A DNA stretch of 64,000 nucleotides, from contig OX597818.1 of the NCBI GenBank assembly GCA_951406725.2, positions 118,730,001-118,794,000 of the forward strand, in the 5' to 3' direction. Of this stretch, positions 6,188 to 57,160 are shown in pieces (position 1 is the stretch's first letter; each line of letters opens with the position of its first letter). Made by a program: the position numbers and the translations under genes. The notes under the pieces were generated by a model. That model saw nothing but the letters and a program-made list of their open reading frames with translations, was not told the origin of the DNA and did no database searches. This DNA comes from Octopus vulgaris. Lineage: Eukaryota.

Positions 6188-6881
6188 TAAGTGTACACAC
6201 AAACACGCACACAAACACACGCACTGGCTCAATTCAATTCCGTTCCTTTCAATTAGTTAAATATCTAACTTACGAATTCGTTTTGTTTTCATTTGTCGGA
6301 GATCTTTCGTTGCTAGTTGCATCCCTTCAATGACTATTGTCTTAAACTCTTATTGAGACAGCTGTCTTCTGTTTGAGATTTGTTGCCTGCGTTTTTGTGC
6401 GTGGCAGCATGCGCGTATGCTTATGTATGTATGGATGTATGTATAGGTGGATGGATGAATGGATTCTTTGTATTCGTGTGTTTGAATCTGTATAAAACGG
6501 GAAGCGTCGTCCACAGCATAAAGTGCATACAAGGAGCTTTTAAGGACAGAAAAACTCAATGGATTCACAGGATACGAGTTTTCTCTTCGACGGATGTCAT
6601 AAGCTCTAAGCTATCATCATCTATATGTATGTTATGTATGTATGTGTGTATATACGAGGAGTATATAATTATAGGCATGTACGTGGGTGTGCAGGCACGC
6701 ATGTGTAGGTATGGACATGCGCGCTAACGGGAATACTATGAACATTTTTACTCCCTCGCTTTTACTCCCACCCCTCACCTAACGGTCAATCGAATAGCTC
6801 TTTTGTCTTAATAACGGTTAATCACACAGTAATTTCCCTTTGTATAACGGTCATTTTTCATAGCGTTTTTTCCGATGGCCG

Positions 6882-6942
6882 GATAACTGAAGAGATGGCG
6901 GCATGGGTTTCTGTCCCTACATCCGAAACTCGGAGTTCTATC
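6882..6942 (+). ncRNA. Hammerhead-like fold (slightly decayed), same family as 43646-43800
   Basis: gataa-CTGAAGA-gatg...catc-c-GAAAC-tcgga-GTT-ctatc; downstream ccgaataatt-tc-catatta matches the 43612-43835 arms. Confidence 0.55.
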
Positions 6943-6986
6943 ATGGCCACCGAATAATTCTCCCATATTAAATTTACACACACACC

Positions 6987-10912: not shown

Positions 10913-11318
10913 TTACTCTTTTACTCTTTTACTTGTTTCAGTCATTTGACTGCGGCCATGCTGGAGCACCGCCTTTAATCGAGCAACTCGACCCCGGGAC
11001 TTATTCTTTTGTAAGCCCAGGACTTATTCTATCGGTCTCTTTTGCCGAACCGATAAGTAACGGGGACATAAACACACCAGCATCGGTTGTCAAGCAATAC
11101 TAGGGGACAAACACAGACACACACACGCATATATATATATATATATATATATATACGACGGGCTTCTTTCAGTTTCCATCTACCAAATCCACTCAGAAGG
11201 CTTTGGTCGGCCCGAGGCTATAGTAGAAGACACTTGCCCAAGGTGCCATGCAGTGGGACTGAACCCGGAACCATGTGGTTGGTAAACAAGCTACTTACCA
11301 CACAGCCACTCCTGCGCC
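10913..11318 (-). mobile_element. SINE family A, full length
   Basis: Reverse complement of 18016-18427: tRNA-like head (tggctgtgtggtaag...ggttcagtccc), ccttgggcaag central motif, internal (TA)n/(CA)n, (taaaagag)n tail. Confidence 0.9.
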
Positions 11319-11974
11319 TAATTGTTAATTGTTAGTAAATCAGTTTAAGGGAAACGAAATCTTTAGCTCTGAGGCTAATGTGTTATACGACTGTGAACCT
11401 GATCACTCACCGTACATTAAGTTGCACAGATTTTACCTTCATCTCAAATATTTATAATGATATTACTGGACAATAAATATATATTTGTCTACTCATATTT
11501 TGAAGTATGCAGTTCTATGATCTGAATCTAATTACTTCTAATTTTAAAATCGTCTGTATCACATACAGTTTGAATGTTTCGACTATCAGGAAAGTCTGTG
11601 AATATGTCCACCGTAAACCTAAACTCTAAATATAACAGGAACCAATTCAAAGAAAAGATCATTTTAAAATCAACTCTAACCTTTATACGATGGGAACACT
11701 GCATGCTTCACTCTATTACAAGGATATATTGGTTATGAATTTAAACCTCTGGTCAAATGTTTTGAAAAGTGCCCATTCAGTATTTTATTACATGTGTGTG
11801 TGTAGGGCAGATTTATTCAATATGAGACAATCGGTCTCAATTTGAAGGTGTTTGGCTACAATTTGTTGCAGATCCAGCAGAAACGTAGGAACAATTTCAT
11901 AGTTTTTGAAATAATAAATAGTTAAGATGGTGTGTAAAAGTTGATAAACTTTGGTTGGTTAATGTACGTAACAG

Positions 11975-17315: not shown

Positions 17316-18015
17316 CATATAGCATTGCGCTCAGAATGTATCATGTCTTATTCAAGACATATTGATATTCGCATTTGATAAATTTCTTTTGTGGGTGGAG
17401 AGGAGATATTACAACAAGGATAATCGTAATTGAATTATCAGTTTGAAATTTATGAAGTCTTTGTATAAACATTGGTGTTCCTTGCTGAAATATTGGTCTC
17501 TCACTTTATCATTAATTGCAATATATATCGTACGTTCACCTGCAAATATAATACGTACAATATGGCAATTGGGAGATAAAAAAATCGTAAGAAATTTCAA
17601 CCTTTCCTACTAATTGTATTAGATTCTGTAAAATCTTTTGCTAGATAATATAAAATTGTGAAAGGTACCAAACTCACTCCTCTCAAAATAAAAGACCCAA
17701 TATGATTTTATTTAATAAAATATAAAGCCAACAATACATTATTCAAATTTCATGACAAATTATGCAGCATAGTTTTCAGCGCATTCCATTATTTCAATTA
17801 CTTATTTTGTATTGATAAAAATATCTGCACCAAATATGAATAAAGGTTACTTAAACATGCGACAAAAAAAGAAAGAAAATATGATGTTTTTTTAGTTGGC
17901 CAGCAACAGAGCGGCACAAAGACGATTCCTTTCAATAATATCACAGGTTTCTCGTGAGAAGACTAATGGAAAATAGTAGATAGATTCGCTTTGTAATTTT
18001 AGATATATTTATCCA

Positions 18016-18427
18016 GGCGCAGGAGTGACTGTGTGGTAAGTAGCTTGCTTACGAACCACATGGTTCCGGGTTCAGTCCCACTGCGTGGCACTTTGGGCAA
18101 GTGTCTTCTACTATAGCCTCGGGCCGACCAAAGCCTTGTGAGTGGATTTGGTAGACGGAAACTGAAAGAAGCCCGTCGTATATATGTGTATATATGTATG
18201 TGTGTGTATACGTTTCTGTGTCTGTGTTTGTCCCCACAAGATCGCTTGACAATCGATGTTGGTGTGTTTACGTCCCCGTAACTTAGCAGTTCGGCAAAAG
18301 AGAACGATAAAATAGCTACTAAATTTACAAAGAATAAGTCCTGGGGTCGATTTGCTCGACTACAGGCTGTTCTGCAGCATGGCCGCTGTCAAATGACTAA
18401 AACAAGTAAAAGAGTATAAGAGTAAAA
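18016..18427 (+). mobile_element. SINE family A, full length
   Basis: ggcgcaggagtgactgtgtggtaag...ggttcagtccc head; internal (TA/TG)n; tail cagcatggccgctgtcaaatgactaaaacaagtaaaagag. Confidence 0.9.
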
Positions 18428-26469: not shown

Positions 26470-26865
26470 TCTTTTGACTCATTTAATCATTATAATGCGG
26501 CCATAGAGGAACTATACCTTGAAAAATTTTTATCGATTTAACCAAACCCTTGTACTTACTTTTTGTAATGCCTGGTACTTATTTTATCTGTTCGCTTTTG
26601 ACGAGCCACTAAGTTACTGGAAAAAAAAAAGCATATCAACGTCGGTTTTCCAGAGGTGGTGGGACACAAACACAGACACAGGACAGACACACATATATAC
26701 ATATATTTACGACGGGCTTCTTTCTGTTTCCGTTTACCAAATCCATTCGCTAGGCTTTCATTGCTCCGAGGTTATAATAGAAAATACTTTCCCACGGTGC
26801 TAAGCAGTGGAACTGAACCTTGAAACACGTGGTTGAGAAACAAGCTTCTTACCACACAGCCACAC
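26470..26865 (-). mobile_element. Degenerate SINE family A
   Basis: tgcggccat...acgacgggcttcttt...caaatcca...cagtggaactgaacc...cttaccacacagccac. Confidence 0.75.
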
Positions 26866-27371
26866 CAGTTATATTTCTTTTTACATTCAGGTTTGGTCTT
26901 TGAAAATGTCTTCTTAATGCGATTATCAAATCGAAGTGTAGTGCAACAGGACCGAACGTTAAATCGACGGGCAAAATAACTGATGCCATTTTTCAGGTGT
27001 TTAAATCTGAGTTTAAATCGCGTCGACTCAGCTTTGTTTTATGATACGAAGGTTGGTAAAATACAGTACTAGTCCAATTCTGCAGTTAATATAATTGGCT
27101 GCCATCCCTCCAACCACATTTCAGGCCTTTTTGTTATGTTAGAGACAGCTATGATATACGGTGAAAATATTCCAACTAACCTGTTTTATTGAGTTTTTTC
27201 GGTAATAAAGAATGCAGTGTCCATGACCCGTCATGTACCCCGCAACACTGGTCCGAGTGAATAGAAATGATACCTACAAATCATACATCTGAATATTTGC
27301 ATCAAAGTGGACTCTGCTAAAGTTATTCAATCTTTCAGGTACGACGGATTCGGGTTACTGTCCAAGGAACG

Positions 27372-42705: not shown

Positions 42706-42789
42706 CAGCTAAGAGAATAAAGATAATCTTAGAATACAAAACCAAAACCCTTGAAATTACAATTACCCACGATTCATATGATAGTGTGC

Positions 42790-43330
42790 ATACATGCGAT
42801 TGAGTTGGTTAATACATGTTAAACCATCTTAATTCGAAATTTTCTGGTCATAGCATCGTATATACTGCGACGATGCTTTTGCAGTATCACACATTTTTGA
42901 TTAACATTCTATGGATTCCGAGGACTTAACATATCTATCGCTACCAACTTAACTAAACTAACGTTTTAGATTTGTCTTTAGTTCTCAAGACTAATTCGTA
43001 TAAGCTCTTCAGCAAACATAACGAGACCTTAGAATATACCAATAAACACTCCTGTTACCTATCTATTGTATTTAAAGAATTCAATTGCAAATATTAGCCG
43101 TAGGGTCACATGCTTTCTTCTAAAGAAACATTCGAAAAGGCCGCTCCATATTATATTAAGGCCCTACAGGATAGCGACTTTATTGATAACATTTTCTACA
43201 TACCCTATCAACTCTCCCATCTAGACGTAAGAATAGATCTGGGAAAGGTTTCTGGTTTGCCATACACGCCCTTTCTCCCTTAATGTTAGGACAAACGCAG
43301 GTAGAAAGATTCTTGTCGGAATTTTAAAGT
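42790..43330 (+). mobile_element. Decayed Penelope-like element RT/thumb fragment
   Basis: Manual translation: IYCDDAFA, FLDLSLVLKTNSYKLFSKHNETLEY, SSKETFEKAAPYYIKALQDS, NVRTNAGRK - PLE RT motifs with frameshifts. Confidence 0.7.
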
Positions 43331-43611
43331 AGACCACCAGACACTTAGTGAAACATTAGCATCTGGTTTGTGTCTGCTTCATATTGAATTCTTGTAACGC
43401 TGATTACGTTTCTTGTGTTTTTCTTTTTGTCTTCTTTACAAACGCATCTTGTTTAAGTGTTATCTCTTCAAAAGACAATTGACAAACGGCCTTGTCTACA
43501 GCTTGATAGAAAAGCGCAATAAATTACTATTTCGGTACGAAACACTGGGTAGCGATATAGATTTTTGGTCTAGTCTATCTATCTATCTATATATATATAT
43601 ATATTCATCTG

Positions 43612-43835
43612 TAATATAATATGTGACAATTATTCGGTTACCATAATAAGACTCCGAGTTTCGGATGTAGGGGTGGAAACCTGCTCCAGCATCTCTTCAG
43701 TTATCGAGTGATGAAAATATGCTCATATTTTGATTGCCTCGATATCTGAAGAGATGCCGGAGCAGGTTTCCATCCCGACATCCGAAACTCGGTGTCTTAT
43801 TATTGCAACCGAATAATTGTCACATATTACATTAT
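43612..43835. ncRNA. ~220-nt foldback element with two divergent hammerhead folds (43646-43704 minus; 43742-43800 plus)
   Basis: Arms are reverse complements around ~43722; each reads ata(a/t)-CTGAAGA-gatg...catc-c-GAAAC-tcgg(a/t)-GTC-ttat. Confidence 0.75.
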
Positions 43836-43896
43836 ATTCATGTTATATGTGTGAATGTGTGTGTATGTATGTGTGTATGTATGTATGTATATAACA

Positions 43897-44113
43897 CACG
43901 AGGACTGGTGAAAAGTTCCTGTGACTTTTGATAAAAGAAAATACAGGAGGGTTAGTTAATTGTGATTTTATTCAACATATTCCCCTCTGAAATTCACACT
44001 CTTATTGCGGCAGTTCTTCGGTTTTTCTAAACCCTGTAAAAGAACTCGAAATGTTAGGCCTCCATCCAGGCCTTTCGCGACACTCTTAAGGCCAGGAACT
44101 CAGCACTCTCTCG

Positions 44114-44593: not shown

Positions 44594-45058
44594 TCACTCC
44601 CTGTTGAGAAAATATTTCCTGTAATAAATTCTCCTAATTTTGTCCAGCTGCAAAAACCTGCGATAAATTATACACGTTATATGAAAGTCGATCATCAGGT
44701 ATCCCGTCCTGATTGAATACACATCTTCGAATCTTCTCCGATCGGCCTATTGTTCCGATTTGTGTTTTACGACTGAAACGGATCTCTTGTTCCTACCGTA
44801 ACTGTCTTTGGTTGCTCGAACAGGTAACCGGGATACGTAACCCCGAAATGCAACCCAAAAGTGTTTGTGGTAACCCGAACCTACTATATCTAGGAATATT
44901 GAAGAGTCCCTATCCAGATAGATGCTGTAAATATATTTGAATTTCTTCGAAGGAAGAATATAAATGAGGTTATCATTAATAGATTTCATTAACCTATATC
45001 TTTAATAAGGAAACTGTATCATGAATGCAACTAATCTTATATGGAGAAAATAAATAAA

Positions 45059-45460
45059 CGCAGGAGTGGCTGTGTGGTAAGTAGCTTGCTAACCAACCAC
45101 ATGGTTCCGGGTTCAGTCCCACTGCGTGGCATCTTGGGCAAGTGTCTTCTGCTATAGCCCCGGGCCGACCAATGCCTTGTGAGTGGATTTGGTAGACAGA
45201 AACTGAAAGAAGCCTGTCGTATATATGTATATATATATAAGTGTGTGTGTATATGTTTGTGTGTCTGTGATTGTCCCCCTACCATTGCTTGACAACCGAT
45301 GCTGGTGTGTTTACGTCCCCGTCAACTAGCGGTTCGGCAAAAGAGACCGATAGAATAAGTACTGGGCTTACAAAGAATAAGTCCCGGGGTCGATTTGCTA
45401 GACTAAACGCGGTGCTCCAGCATGGCCGCAGTCAAATGACTGAAATAAGTAGAAGAGTAA
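45059..45460 (+). mobile_element. SINE family A, full length
   Basis: cgcaggagtggctgtgtggtaag...gcggtgctccagcatggccgcagtcaaatgactgaaa. Confidence 0.9.
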
Positions 45461-51214: not shown

Positions 51215-52450
51215 GCCCGAACTACAACGGGATTTTCCCATAAAGAACGTTTCTGGTTACTTTTGAGCACCTCTTTGTTATATTAGTAGGATGGTTGCTA
51301 AAAATGCTGATATATTTTAGATTGGCGGAAGGTTTACGGTATGGGAAATAGAAAGCTGTATTTAAGTTGCGTTTGAAGTCAAGGAATTTAACCTTTGTTC
51401 TATCATCATCAAAGGTAAAACTCACGACCATATTACTGAAGAATTTAATTAGATTATTTTTAACATTTTGTAATTTATGATTAGAGATATTTTGGAGGTA
51501 AAGAAGACAATCGTCGCGATATACACCACCGAAGATATATGGGAATTGGTCAACAAGTTTTTTGACAGAATATAAATACCGACCAAGTCAGAAATTTGAG
51601 CTGAGTCGTTGGACCCCATAGGTATATCAAAGCAGTCAGGTCGATCTTTACGAACCCAAAATCTATTATCAAATTTGATAATATATTTTCTAGCTGCTGA
51701 AACAAAAATTCATCCTGGGTGACGCCGGATTTATTATGCACGAACTATAAGGACAGATAAGACGGAGAGTTGGGTTAGTGGAGAAGTTTGGTTTGTGGTC
51801 CTTTGAAACAAAACGGAGCTGCTTTGGTTTTAACGGTTCAGTCTTCAGTTGTAAGTTATATTTTTCCATAATTTTCTTAGCTCCCAGGTTTGCATTTCTG
51901 ATATGATTTTTACCAGTAGTCTTGTATGTATTTTTATATTCCATTCCTAAGTAATTTTAGGTAATAACCCTTGTTTAAGTGATACAGGTTACCAGTTTTA
52001 TCGGATTCAACAAGCAGGCCTTCCATGCTGTTAATTTTTCAACCTGTTTTGCCCATCTACAATCAACATGCTATAAATAAGAATGTATGTTTCGTGGTTT
52101 GGGATTTTGACATCTCTTTTCAGCATGTAAGGAGACCAGATAAGATGGAGTGCTGGGTTATTGAAGAAGATAGTGTTGTGGTCTATTGTTAAGAATGTTA
52201 AATTCCATCGTTCTCCCTTAAAGAATAAACAGCATGTTGACTTATTTCTGTGTGAATGATCTTCTGGGTGTATTACAGCTGTGGATCTTTCAGTCTCACA
52301 GCTTGTTTTGTGTGCTCTATTCGTCGTATCACCGAATTCATGCAGCTGGCATACAGACTGGAATTGGTGCATTCTTTAATGTAGTGAAACTGTCGGGTAG
52401 TTATTTTCTTTCCATTTTCATCTTTATTTTCTACTTGCGTTCCCTTTTTT
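51215..52450 (-). mobile_element. Decayed Penelope-like element RT
   Basis: LLVESDKTGNLY, KDHKPNFSTNPTLRLICP, GGVYRDDCL (~51503-51530), FLDF...PYRKP...YISIFSNHP. Confidence 0.85.
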
Positions 52451-54495: not shown

Positions 54496-54730
54496 ACAAC
54501 GCCCGATCTGGGAATGGAAACCGCGATCCTAAGGCCGCGAGTCCGCTGCCCTAAACACTGGGACATTGCACCTCCTCTGTGTGGTATGTAGCTTGATTAC
54601 CAACCATATGGTTCCGGGTTCAGACCCACTGCGTTGCACCTTGGTCAAGTGTCTCCTACTATAGCCTCCGGCCGACCAAAGCTTTGTGAGTGGATTTGGT
54701 AGACGGAAAATAAATGAAGCCCGTCATATA
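54496..54730. mobile_element. SINE C head (minus, 54496-54575) back-to-back with SINE A 5' half (plus, 54576-54730)
   Basis: Matches 8572-8650 and 18029-18180 respectively. Confidence 0.75.
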
Positions 54731-54790
54731 TATATATAACGGTATGCTTATTAAAAGGAATCCGTGGGAAAACCCATTTAAATAAAAGAG

Positions 54791-56978: not shown

Positions 56979-57026
<48 letters not shown>

Positions 57027-57160
57027 TACGACGGGTTTCTTTCAGTTTCCGTCTACCAAATCCACTCGCAAGCCTTTGGTCGACCCGAGGCTATAGTAGA
57101 AGACATTTGCCCAAGGTGCCACGCAGTGGAACTGAACCCAGAACCATATGGTTGGTAAGG
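56731..57160 (-). mobile_element. SINE family A, near full length
   Basis: Collinear with 10913-11290. Confidence 0.88.

What the first reader, a model, noticed from the sequence alone, without database searches (positions are those of the whole stretch)
43612..43835. Perfect foldback element carrying two divergent hammerheads
Seen: the whole ~220 nt is one hairpin centred near 43722 (the centre aaaatatg-ct-catatttt also pairs). Each arm encodes CUGAAGA / gatg..catc / GAAAC-ucgg-GUC / ataa-ttat reading outward, so a transcript from either strand contains one sense ribozyme preceded by its own antisense. A single-arm relative lies at 6882-6970 and a PLE RT relic 300 bp upstream. Inference: either an inverted-pLTR product of PLE 5' inversion or a MITE-like unit with both-polarity ribozymes, superficially recalling viroid-like rod RNAs. 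The hairpin could silence the ribozyme or feed Dicer/ADAR.
Basis: partly seen in the sequence, partly recalled or inferred. Interest (0 to 1): 0.75.

Follow-up and report, generated by a model that had tools for sequence, protein, structure and literature searches.

The report
Head-to-head stump of Penelope-like retrotransposon
This 230-base DNA hairpin is two truncated tail ends of a Penelope-type jumping gene joined back to back, a layout already described for this group; its two ribozyme motifs are likely idle passengers, but the many copies show a strict "one long end, one short end" pattern that likely records how the element inserts.

Summary
The hairpin is real (z = -21.7) but not perfect: the arms are 88% alike, and only the minus-strand arm keeps an intact hammerhead. 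It is not a one-off and not a MITE. Each arm is the 3' end (pLTR) of a Penelope-like element (PLE) whose protein fits the Hydra clade. Single arms run upstream into a GIY-YIG ORF. Of 97 sampled loci, 50 carry an abutting inverted arm, and 17 keep both hammerheads because 5' truncations pile up just in front of the motif. Junctions differ between loci (83 types in 90 pairs), and both arms nearly always share subfamily markers, so foldbacks form anew at insertion. This layout, including opposite-strand hammerhead pairs, is published. Useful extra: pairs join one tailed and one tail-less end (78 of 90; tailed+tailed 0, about 19 expected; young sister family 14 of 16, 0). Either arm can reach further 5', which favours two priming events over simple snap-back. 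There is no pile-up of 5' ends at the predicted cut site. The nearby RT relic is a distant family. This scan reported the same architecture before in other genomes and at another locus of this one.

The parts
43603..43723 (-). Left arm: 5'-truncated PLE 3' end (family positions -10 to about +107/+111; 0 = first G of GATTGCC), short (tail-less) end
43645..43705 (-). Intact type I hammerhead motif: stem I GAUAA/UUAUU, CUGAAGA, stem II GAUG/CAUC plus one extra base, GAAA, palindromic stem III ACUC-G-GAGU, GUC; predicted cut between 43650 and 43649
   Evidence: cleavage not tested
43723..43724 (.). Head-to-head junction of the two 5' truncation points (blunt, no overlap, no insertion)
43724..43834 (+). 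Right arm: 5'-truncated PLE 3' end (positions -8 to about +102), short (tail-less) end; same subfamily haplotype as the left arm
43741..43801 (+). Damaged hammerhead motif: core intact, stem I closing pair and stem III palindrome each broken by one substitution
43600..43608 (+). Candidate 9-nt target-site duplication, left copy (TATATTCAT), at the edge of a (TA)n tract; overlaps the arm end; not above control
43833..43841 (+). Candidate 9-nt target-site duplication, right copy
6659..6974 (+). Single-arm relative (78% identity): 3' UTR plus hammerhead (6882-6942), short end, followed by (CA)n/(TA)n
42762..43232 (+). Decayed PLE RT fragment of a distant family (30-33% protein identity); neighbour, not the parent of the hairpin

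Best explanation
The hairpin is a single insertion made of two 5'-truncated 3' ends of a Penelope-like retrotransposon joined head to head, likely built at the target by two separate priming events rather than copied as a ready-made unit. Shown: each arm is the pLTR end of an element with an RT + GIY-YIG ORF; arms truncate at many points; junctions are enriched for short microhomology; both arms come from one subfamily; targets are mostly (TA)n; pairs almost always join a tailed end (about +174) to a tail-less end (about +100 to +108) and never two tailed ends. Inferred (about 0.6): the endonuclease nicks both target strands, one nick primes cDNA at the distal start site and the other at the proximal start site of RNA from one source, and the two cDNAs stop and are joined through 0-6 nt of complementarity. 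Many cDNAs stop at -20 to +20, likely near the RNA 5' end or at an RT stall, which yields the double-hammerhead miniature. The hammerhead is predicted to work only as a dimer in tandem PLE transcripts. Here the two motifs lie on opposite strands, one is damaged, and a read-through RNA would pair them with their antisense, so they are likely inactive. This locus is one of the few with two tail-less ends.
For: Family copies continue upstream through about 700 nt of 3' UTR into a GIY-YIG C-terminus (L049). L113 is a 2.7-kb tailed arm with ORF plus an inverted 110-nt short arm. In a young sister family the homologous motif sits at the tandem junction and the tail continues into the 5' UTR of a 708-aa ORF. 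Sample chosen only by a 31-nt motif downstream of the hammerhead: 50 of 97 loci have an abutting inverted arm, 17 of 97 keep both hammerheads. All 90 distinct pairs: 78 L+S, 6 M+S, 4 S+S, 2 L+M, 0 L+L; about 19 L+L expected, P about 5e-10. Sister family: 14 L+S, 1 S+S, 1 S+M, 0 L+L of 16 complete arrays. The short arm reaches further 5' in 37 of 84 pairs, the long arm in 32, within 3 nt in 15. Overlap of 2 nt or more in 21 of 45 clean junctions against 19% by chance (p 3e-5). Arms concordant at six subfamily sites (20/21, 43/52, 51/53, 47/58, 63/70, 72/76; all p <= 0.0004); only 2 of 90 pairs differ at two or more sites. 83 junction types in 90 pairs; recurring ones mostly sit on different haplotypes. 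Published: inverted 5'-truncated copy and one-sided tail (PMC8557442; PMC3846280); opposite-strand hammerhead pairs 100-700 bp apart (PMC4209133); both strands nicked and extended, two RT start sites bounding the tail, predicted dimer (PMC11167929).
Against: This locus itself has no tail (S+S), so it does not show the family rule. The two 5' ends are weakly correlated (median difference 21 nt against 30 permuted, p 0.046; Spearman 0.24, p 0.09; 49 pairs), which leaves room for snap-back. Target-site duplications could not be shown (10 of 90 against 49 of 600 in controls). No full-length copy of this exact family was recovered, so the intact ORF is from a sister family (arms about 72% alike). 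L077 and L078 share one junction with the tail on opposite arms, which de novo formation explains poorly. 45 of 90 junctions had a positive gap and were left out of the microhomology count. Arm ends from local alignment are uncertain by a few bases.
Confidence: 0.82

Rival explanations
1. Same element, different mechanism: one cDNA (or an antisense RNA, as proposed in PMC3846280) folds back and primes its own copy, and the endonuclease then resolves the hairpin with staggered cuts that leave the tail on one end.
For: Both arms share haplotype and some rare variants (48 of 327 shared, 10.7 expected). 5' ends are weakly correlated. Four sister-family arrays have near-symmetric junctions near -1180. 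Staggered resolution would also give one tailed and one tail-less end.
Against: Simple snap-back from a tail-primed cDNA predicts that the tailed arm always reaches further 5'; the short arm does so in 37 of 84 pairs. Several junctions are zero-spacer palindromes with no room for a loop (L014, L101 at -7/-7; L019 at -9/-9). In the sister family both arms can hold several tandem units with unrelated lengths.
Confidence: 0.25
2. The two-arm form is a non-autonomous unit (MITE-like, or a retro-copied foldback) that spreads whole.
For: At least 40 dispersed two-arm copies of similar size. L077 and L078 share a junction with only 1 nt of overlap and a rare tail variant but have different flanks.
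Against: 83 junction types in 90 pairs; arm lengths and outer ends vary; left and right arms carry no fixed differences but follow each locus's subfamily; about half of the loci are single arms; no constant target duplication.
Confidence: 0.05
3. The hairpin is kept for a function: a both-polarity, viroid-like ribozyme RNA, a ribozyme silencer, or a Dicer/ADAR substrate.
For: Either strand folds into a rod of about -155 kcal/mol that buries the motif. PLE-derived small RNAs are reported in a rotifer (PMC3846280 passages).
Against: Copies decay as if neutral: arms differ by 10% on average, CpG sites 20%, core 3.8% against 5.8% for other non-CpG sites. Both arms are intact in 4 of 48 loci. One strand holds only one sense motif, so it cannot excise a circle or form the cis dimer.
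Confidence: 0.04

Closest known systems
EN+ PLE insertions with inverted 5'-truncated pLTR and one-sided tail (Pen2a_Av, PMC3846280; overview in PMC8557442)
   Same: Head-to-head inverted pLTR at the 5' truncation point, tail on one end, microhomology at 5' junctions, microsatellite targets.
   Different: Here both arms are cut back to about 115 nt with no ORF; the tail is about 67 nt rather than 30-40; this locus lacks the tail; target duplications are not demonstrable in (TA)n.
Hydra clade of PLEs, e.g. Hydra-1_Obim (PMC8557442 section 11, Files S1 and S2)
   Same: Sister-family ORF shows RWK, DKT, CxCX5C linker, CxxC and CxH near the conserved E and N, no Cys pair inside GIY-YIG, unit under 3 kb, (TA)n targets; the listed hammerhead also has CUGAAGAG and a palindromic stem III with a 1-nt centre.
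   Different: The hammerhead and pLTR sequence differ from Hydra-1_Obim, so this is another family. Compared by eye only; no tree was built.
PLE minimal/dimeric type I hammerheads (PMC4209133)
   Same: Short helix I, long helix II, small palindromic helix III, pairs on opposite strands 100-700 bp apart ascribed to truncated PLEs.
   Different: The extra unpaired base lies on the 3' side of helix II (before GAAA) rather than between positions 9 and 10.1; the cleavage triplet varies GUC/GUU among subfamilies.
Poseidon from Anolis (PAc) in vitro system (PMC11167929)
   Same: Two fixed 3' ends bounding a tail, AT-rich targets, hammerhead just upstream of the start sites.
   Different: That paper does not treat how inverted arms form and found no start-site difference between strands; here the ends are paired one long with one short, and short ends shift with the flank (about +104 beside (CA)n, +100 or +108 beside (TA)n).
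L1 twin priming (recalled, not from a call) and viroid both-polarity hammerheads (recalled; role in rolling-circle replication mentioned in PMC4209133)
   Same: Two priming events giving an inversion; hammerheads on both polarities of a rod.
   Different: In L1 the two parts do not overlap, whereas here both arms copy the same sequence. Viroids are circular, self-replicating RNAs; this is a linear genomic inverted repeat that decays.

Membership tests
EN+ PLE inverted-pLTR insertion | Arm is the 3' terminus of an element with RT and C-terminal GIY-YIG | tested here: met
   L049, L113, L117, L124, L128 link arm and GIY-YIG region; sister ORF 708 aa, Pfam GIY-YIG E 0.013, below the curated cut-off; Atlas neighbours carry GIY-YIG/RVT_1 on a minority of members
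EN+ PLE inverted-pLTR insertion | Variable 5' truncation | tested here: met
   5' ends from +72 to beyond -165 in 99 arms
EN+ PLE inverted-pLTR insertion | Inverted truncated copy abutting the 5' end | tested here: met
   50 of 97 loci; this locus
EN+ PLE inverted-pLTR insertion | Optional tail at one end only | tested here: met
   78 of 90 pairs L+S, 0 L+L; absent at this locus, where it is optional by the published description
EN+ PLE inverted-pLTR insertion | Target-site duplication of about 8-10 bp | tested here: inconclusive
   9-nt candidate here; 10 of 90 against 49 of 600 control
Hydra clade | RWK, DKT, CxCX5C, CxxC and CxH motifs; no CCHH cysteines | tested here: met
   Read in the sister-family ORF against the definition; the family's own C-terminal remnant in L049 is of the same type
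Hydra clade | Unit under 3 kb, single ORF, (TA)n targets | tested here: met
   2590-nt period, one ORF; flanks mostly (TA)n
Hydra clade | Placement in the clade by RT phylogeny | not tested
   No reference set was held as sequences; similarity to Hydra-1_Obim judged by eye
PLE type I hammerhead | Core CUGANGA, GAAA, NUH | tested here: met
   Both arms; subfamily variation falls on N7 (A/C/U) and H17 (C/U) among 296 arms
PLE type I hammerhead | Helices I, II and palindromic helix III | tested here: met
   Minus arm only; stem III self-duplex -9.7 kcal/mol against -3.0 in the plus arm; the sister family changes the palindrome centre and the extra base and keeps the stems
PLE type I hammerhead | Covariation support | tested here: inconclusive
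   5 sequences, 90% of cells paired, not above shuffles
PLE type I hammerhead | Self-cleavage | not testable with these tools
   Indirect test negative: 7 of 76 5' ends at +63 to +68, 6.2 expected
MITE (non-autonomous DNA transposon) | Fixed terminal inverted repeats, uniform length, inherited interior | tested here: not met
   Unequal outer ends, 83 junction types in 90
Non-LTR retrozyme / viroid-like RNA | Tandem same-sense hammerheads able to excise a circular monomer | tested here: not met
   One sense motif per strand
Non-LTR retrozyme / viroid-like RNA | Circular RNA expressed | not testable with these tools
   Only assembled contigs were offered

The most novel reading that the evidence does not exclude
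Some of these foldbacks are copied again as whole units by the Hydra enzyme, from either strand, forming a non-coding retroelement with ribozymes on both polarities. L077 and L078, with one shared junction, shared rare variants, different flanks and the tail on opposite arms, would be its first trace.
Probability: 0.07. Interest if true: 0.65.

Novelty: new member of a known kind. Interest (0 to 1): 0.3.

Why it matters
The locus is an ordinary decayed PLE stump. The family census bears on an open question: how PLEs make tandem and inverted insertions, which PMC8557442 names as unresolved. A strict pairing of one tailed with one tail-less end (0 tailed+tailed in 90 and in 16 pairs), with either arm reaching further 5', links the two RT start sites seen in vitro for a different clade to the two target nicks. 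The young sister family with an intact 708-aa ORF offers a protein with which to test this. Annotators should not file such hairpins as MITEs or microRNA precursors.

Tried and rejected
Rfam scan: no hammerhead row among the 150 shown of 167; the weak MIR166 match over the hairpin is far below its gathering score. I first read the clade as Neptune from the linker cysteines; the definition in PMC8557442 section 11 fits Hydra instead. The nearby RT relic as parent: rejected, 30-33% identity; my first reading of it on the minus strand was wrong, it is on +. In vivo cleavage signature: no excess of 5' ends at the cut site. Target-site duplications: not above control. Covariation on five hammerheads: uninformative. 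Pfam on two partial ORFs: no family. Solved structures: nothing significant. Expression: no RNA holder listed. Contigs of 4 runs laid on the locus were dominated by paralogous copies and say nothing on this locus or on editing. One search used references with microsatellite tails and gave unreliable ends; it was redone. Searches for a published pairing rule or twin-priming model for PLEs found only the self-priming proposal in PMC3846280; most subscription papers are not in the library, so absence from print is not shown.

Full report
Observation. The region 43590-43860 folds into a single rod (-165 kcal/mol; shuffles -60 +/- 5; z -21.7). It is not perfect: the arms are 88.4% identical over 224 nt. 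Hammerhead words read outward on both strands. I number the arm from 0 at the first G of GATTGCC. Stem I is 9-13 with 65-69, the core is 14-20, stem II is 21-24 with 47-50 plus an extra base at 51, GAAA is 52-55, stem III is the near-palindrome 55-63, and the predicted cut follows 64. The minus arm is intact. The plus arm has substitutions at 13 and 61 that break the stem I closing pair and the palindrome. The single arm at 6882-6974 extends upstream to about 6659. The RT relic is at 42762-43232 on +, 30-33% identical to this group's proteins, so it is only a neighbour.

What the arm is. The window lies in a 2.8-Gb genome of 227 contigs; I did not establish the species. A DNA search scored 40 of 2335 candidates, nearly all matching over both arms. 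A 27-nt motif found 78 exact matches and a 31-nt motif downstream of the hammerhead found 163, of which 100 were listed. Single arms continue upstream through a 3' UTR into the C-terminus of a GIY-YIG domain (L049). 14 of 20 loci found with that peptide have a homologous arm nearby. A young sister family has a 2590-nt unit in tandem arrays and a 708-aa ORF; its hammerhead lies at the tandem junction and the sequence after it runs on into the 5' UTR, which defines the arm as a pLTR with tail. The ORF has RWK, DKT, CxCX5C, CxxC and CxH motifs and no cysteines inside GIY-YIG, matching the Hydra clade (PMC8557442 section 11). Hydra-1_Obim in that paper's supplement is similar by eye but has a different hammerhead. 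Pfam gives only a weak GIY-YIG match (E 0.013).

The foldback is one slice of a continuum. In 97 loci chosen only by the downstream motif, 50 have an inverted arm within 30 nt of the 5' truncation point and 47 do not; 7 of those 47 ran past my reference and could have a partner further out. 17 of 97 keep the hammerhead on both arms. 5' ends are densest just in front of the motif: 0.023 per base at risk at -20 to 0 and 0.015 at 0 to +25, against 0.007-0.009 elsewhere. This explains why double-hammerhead miniatures are common. There is no excess at the predicted cut (7 of 76, 6.2 expected).

Formed at each site. Across all loci held, 90 distinct head-to-head pairs fall into 83 junction types; recurring ones mostly use microhomology and sit on different haplotypes. 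Of 45 junctions with no gap, 21 overlap by 2 nt or more (19% by chance, p 3e-5); the other 45 had a positive gap and were set aside. The two arms agree at six subfamily sites far more than shuffled, differ by 10% within and 14% between loci, and the partner is the nearest arm in 24 of 96 cases. Only 2 of 90 pairs disagree at two or more sites. So both arms derive from one source lineage and then decay separately. A MITE would show fixed ends and an inherited centre; neither is seen.

The end rule. Arms end either near +97 to +108 (S) or near +160 to +174 (L, a tail of about 67 nt). Pairs were 78 L+S, 6 M+S, 4 S+S, 2 L+M and 0 L+L, against about 19 L+L expected; several M and one S+S case look by eye like tailed arms with deletions. 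In the sister family I fetched arrays where opposite-strand hits lay close together; of 16 complete arrays 14 were L+S, 1 S+S, 1 S+M and none L+L, with arms from 0.9 kb to several tandem units; one further array was incomplete. The S arm reaches further 5' in 37 of 84 pairs and the L arm in 32. S ends shift with the flank: 12 of 26 ends at +102 to +105 adjoin (CA)n, against 5 of 79 at +106 to +109, which may reflect priming by a few matching bases, though such overlaps also blur the boundary. The window's copy is one of the rare S+S cases, with a candidate 9-nt duplication that is not above control.

Mechanism. PMC11167929 (parts 1-2 of 4 read) shows for a Poseidon element that both target strands are nicked and extended, that RT starts at two sites bounding the tail, and that hammerhead cleavage is dispensable in vitro. 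I infer that here each nick uses one start site and the two cDNAs are end-joined. PMC3846280 (passages) instead proposes self-priming. Simple snap-back from a tailed cDNA is contradicted by the 37 pairs above and by zero-spacer junctions. Snap-back followed by staggered resolution is not excluded, and the weak correlation of the two 5' ends (p 0.046 and 0.09) gives it some support.

The ribozyme. Subfamily variation among 296 arms falls on N7, H17, loop II and a G-U/G-C pair of stem I, the places a working hammerhead tolerates, which suggests selection in source elements. The monomer fold is unfavourable (-2.3 against -9.2 kcal/mol for the best fold), while stem III pairs with a second copy at -9.7, as in the dimeric PLE hammerheads of PMC4209133 (parts 1-2 of 4 read), which already notes opposite-strand pairs 100-700 bp apart. 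In genomic copies the core is only slightly better kept than its surroundings (3.8% against 5.8%), and both arms are intact in 4 of 48 loci. In the foldback each strand has one sense motif buried in a rod of about -155 kcal/mol, so neither a cis dimer nor a circle can form. The viroid resemblance is geometric. Expression and editing could not be judged.

Literature seen: PMC8557442, passages, section 11 and supplement rows; bioRxiv 10.64898/2026.07.22.740005, part 1 of 5, on tandem retrozymes, which this is not; the others as stated. L1 twin priming and viroid details are recalled. Earlier notes of this scan describe the same architecture in other genomes and at another locus of this one; they pointed me to PMC3846280 and to the cut-site test.

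Verdict. A real, ordinary miniature PLE insertion from a Hydra-clade family that I did not find in the one published table I searched: a new member of a known kind. Confidence in the identity is about 0.95 and in the two-priming step about 0.6. Interest 0.3, carried by the end-pairing rule and the testable young sister family.

Noticed in passing
L077 (G000:C17:58963799-58966825) and L078 (G000:C17:59121915-59126649): Two insertions 158 kb apart share the same inverted junction (-11/+46, 1-nt overlap) and a rare tail variant, but have different flanks and the tail on opposite arms; L078 is also tandemly duplicated (period 1708). Re-mobilisation, ectopic conversion or coincidence; unexplained.
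   Followed up: partly
L225:1042-3168; arrays L250-L269: Young Hydra-type sister family, copies 97-100% alike, 2590-nt unit, intact 708-aa ORF, hammerhead core variant CCGAAGA; inverted arrays with up to three tandem units per arm.
   Followed up: partly
L259, L260, L261, L268: Four sister-family insertions join with both arms ending near -1180 of the unit, at a stretch with short palindromes; a junction hot spot inside the ORF.
   Followed up: no
family-wide, positions -20 to +20: 5' truncations pile up just in front of the hammerhead; could mark the RNA start or an RT stall.
   Followed up: partly
window 51249-51827, minus strand: A second decayed PLE RT fragment (33-50% identity to the sister ORF).
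   Followed up: no
window 43901-44100: Fragment of another very high-copy repeat right of the hairpin (deep cover); looks like a mariner-type end (label recalled, not tested).
   Followed up: no
window 11107-11326, 18015-18227, 45049-45268, 26683-26866, 54577-54738, 56994-57159: Several copies of a dispersed repeat of about 200 nt in both orientations, probably a SINE.
   Followed up: no
L011, L020, L110: Both arms share three rare variants each and differ little (1-6%), suggesting a private source copy or conversion between the arms.
   Followed up: no
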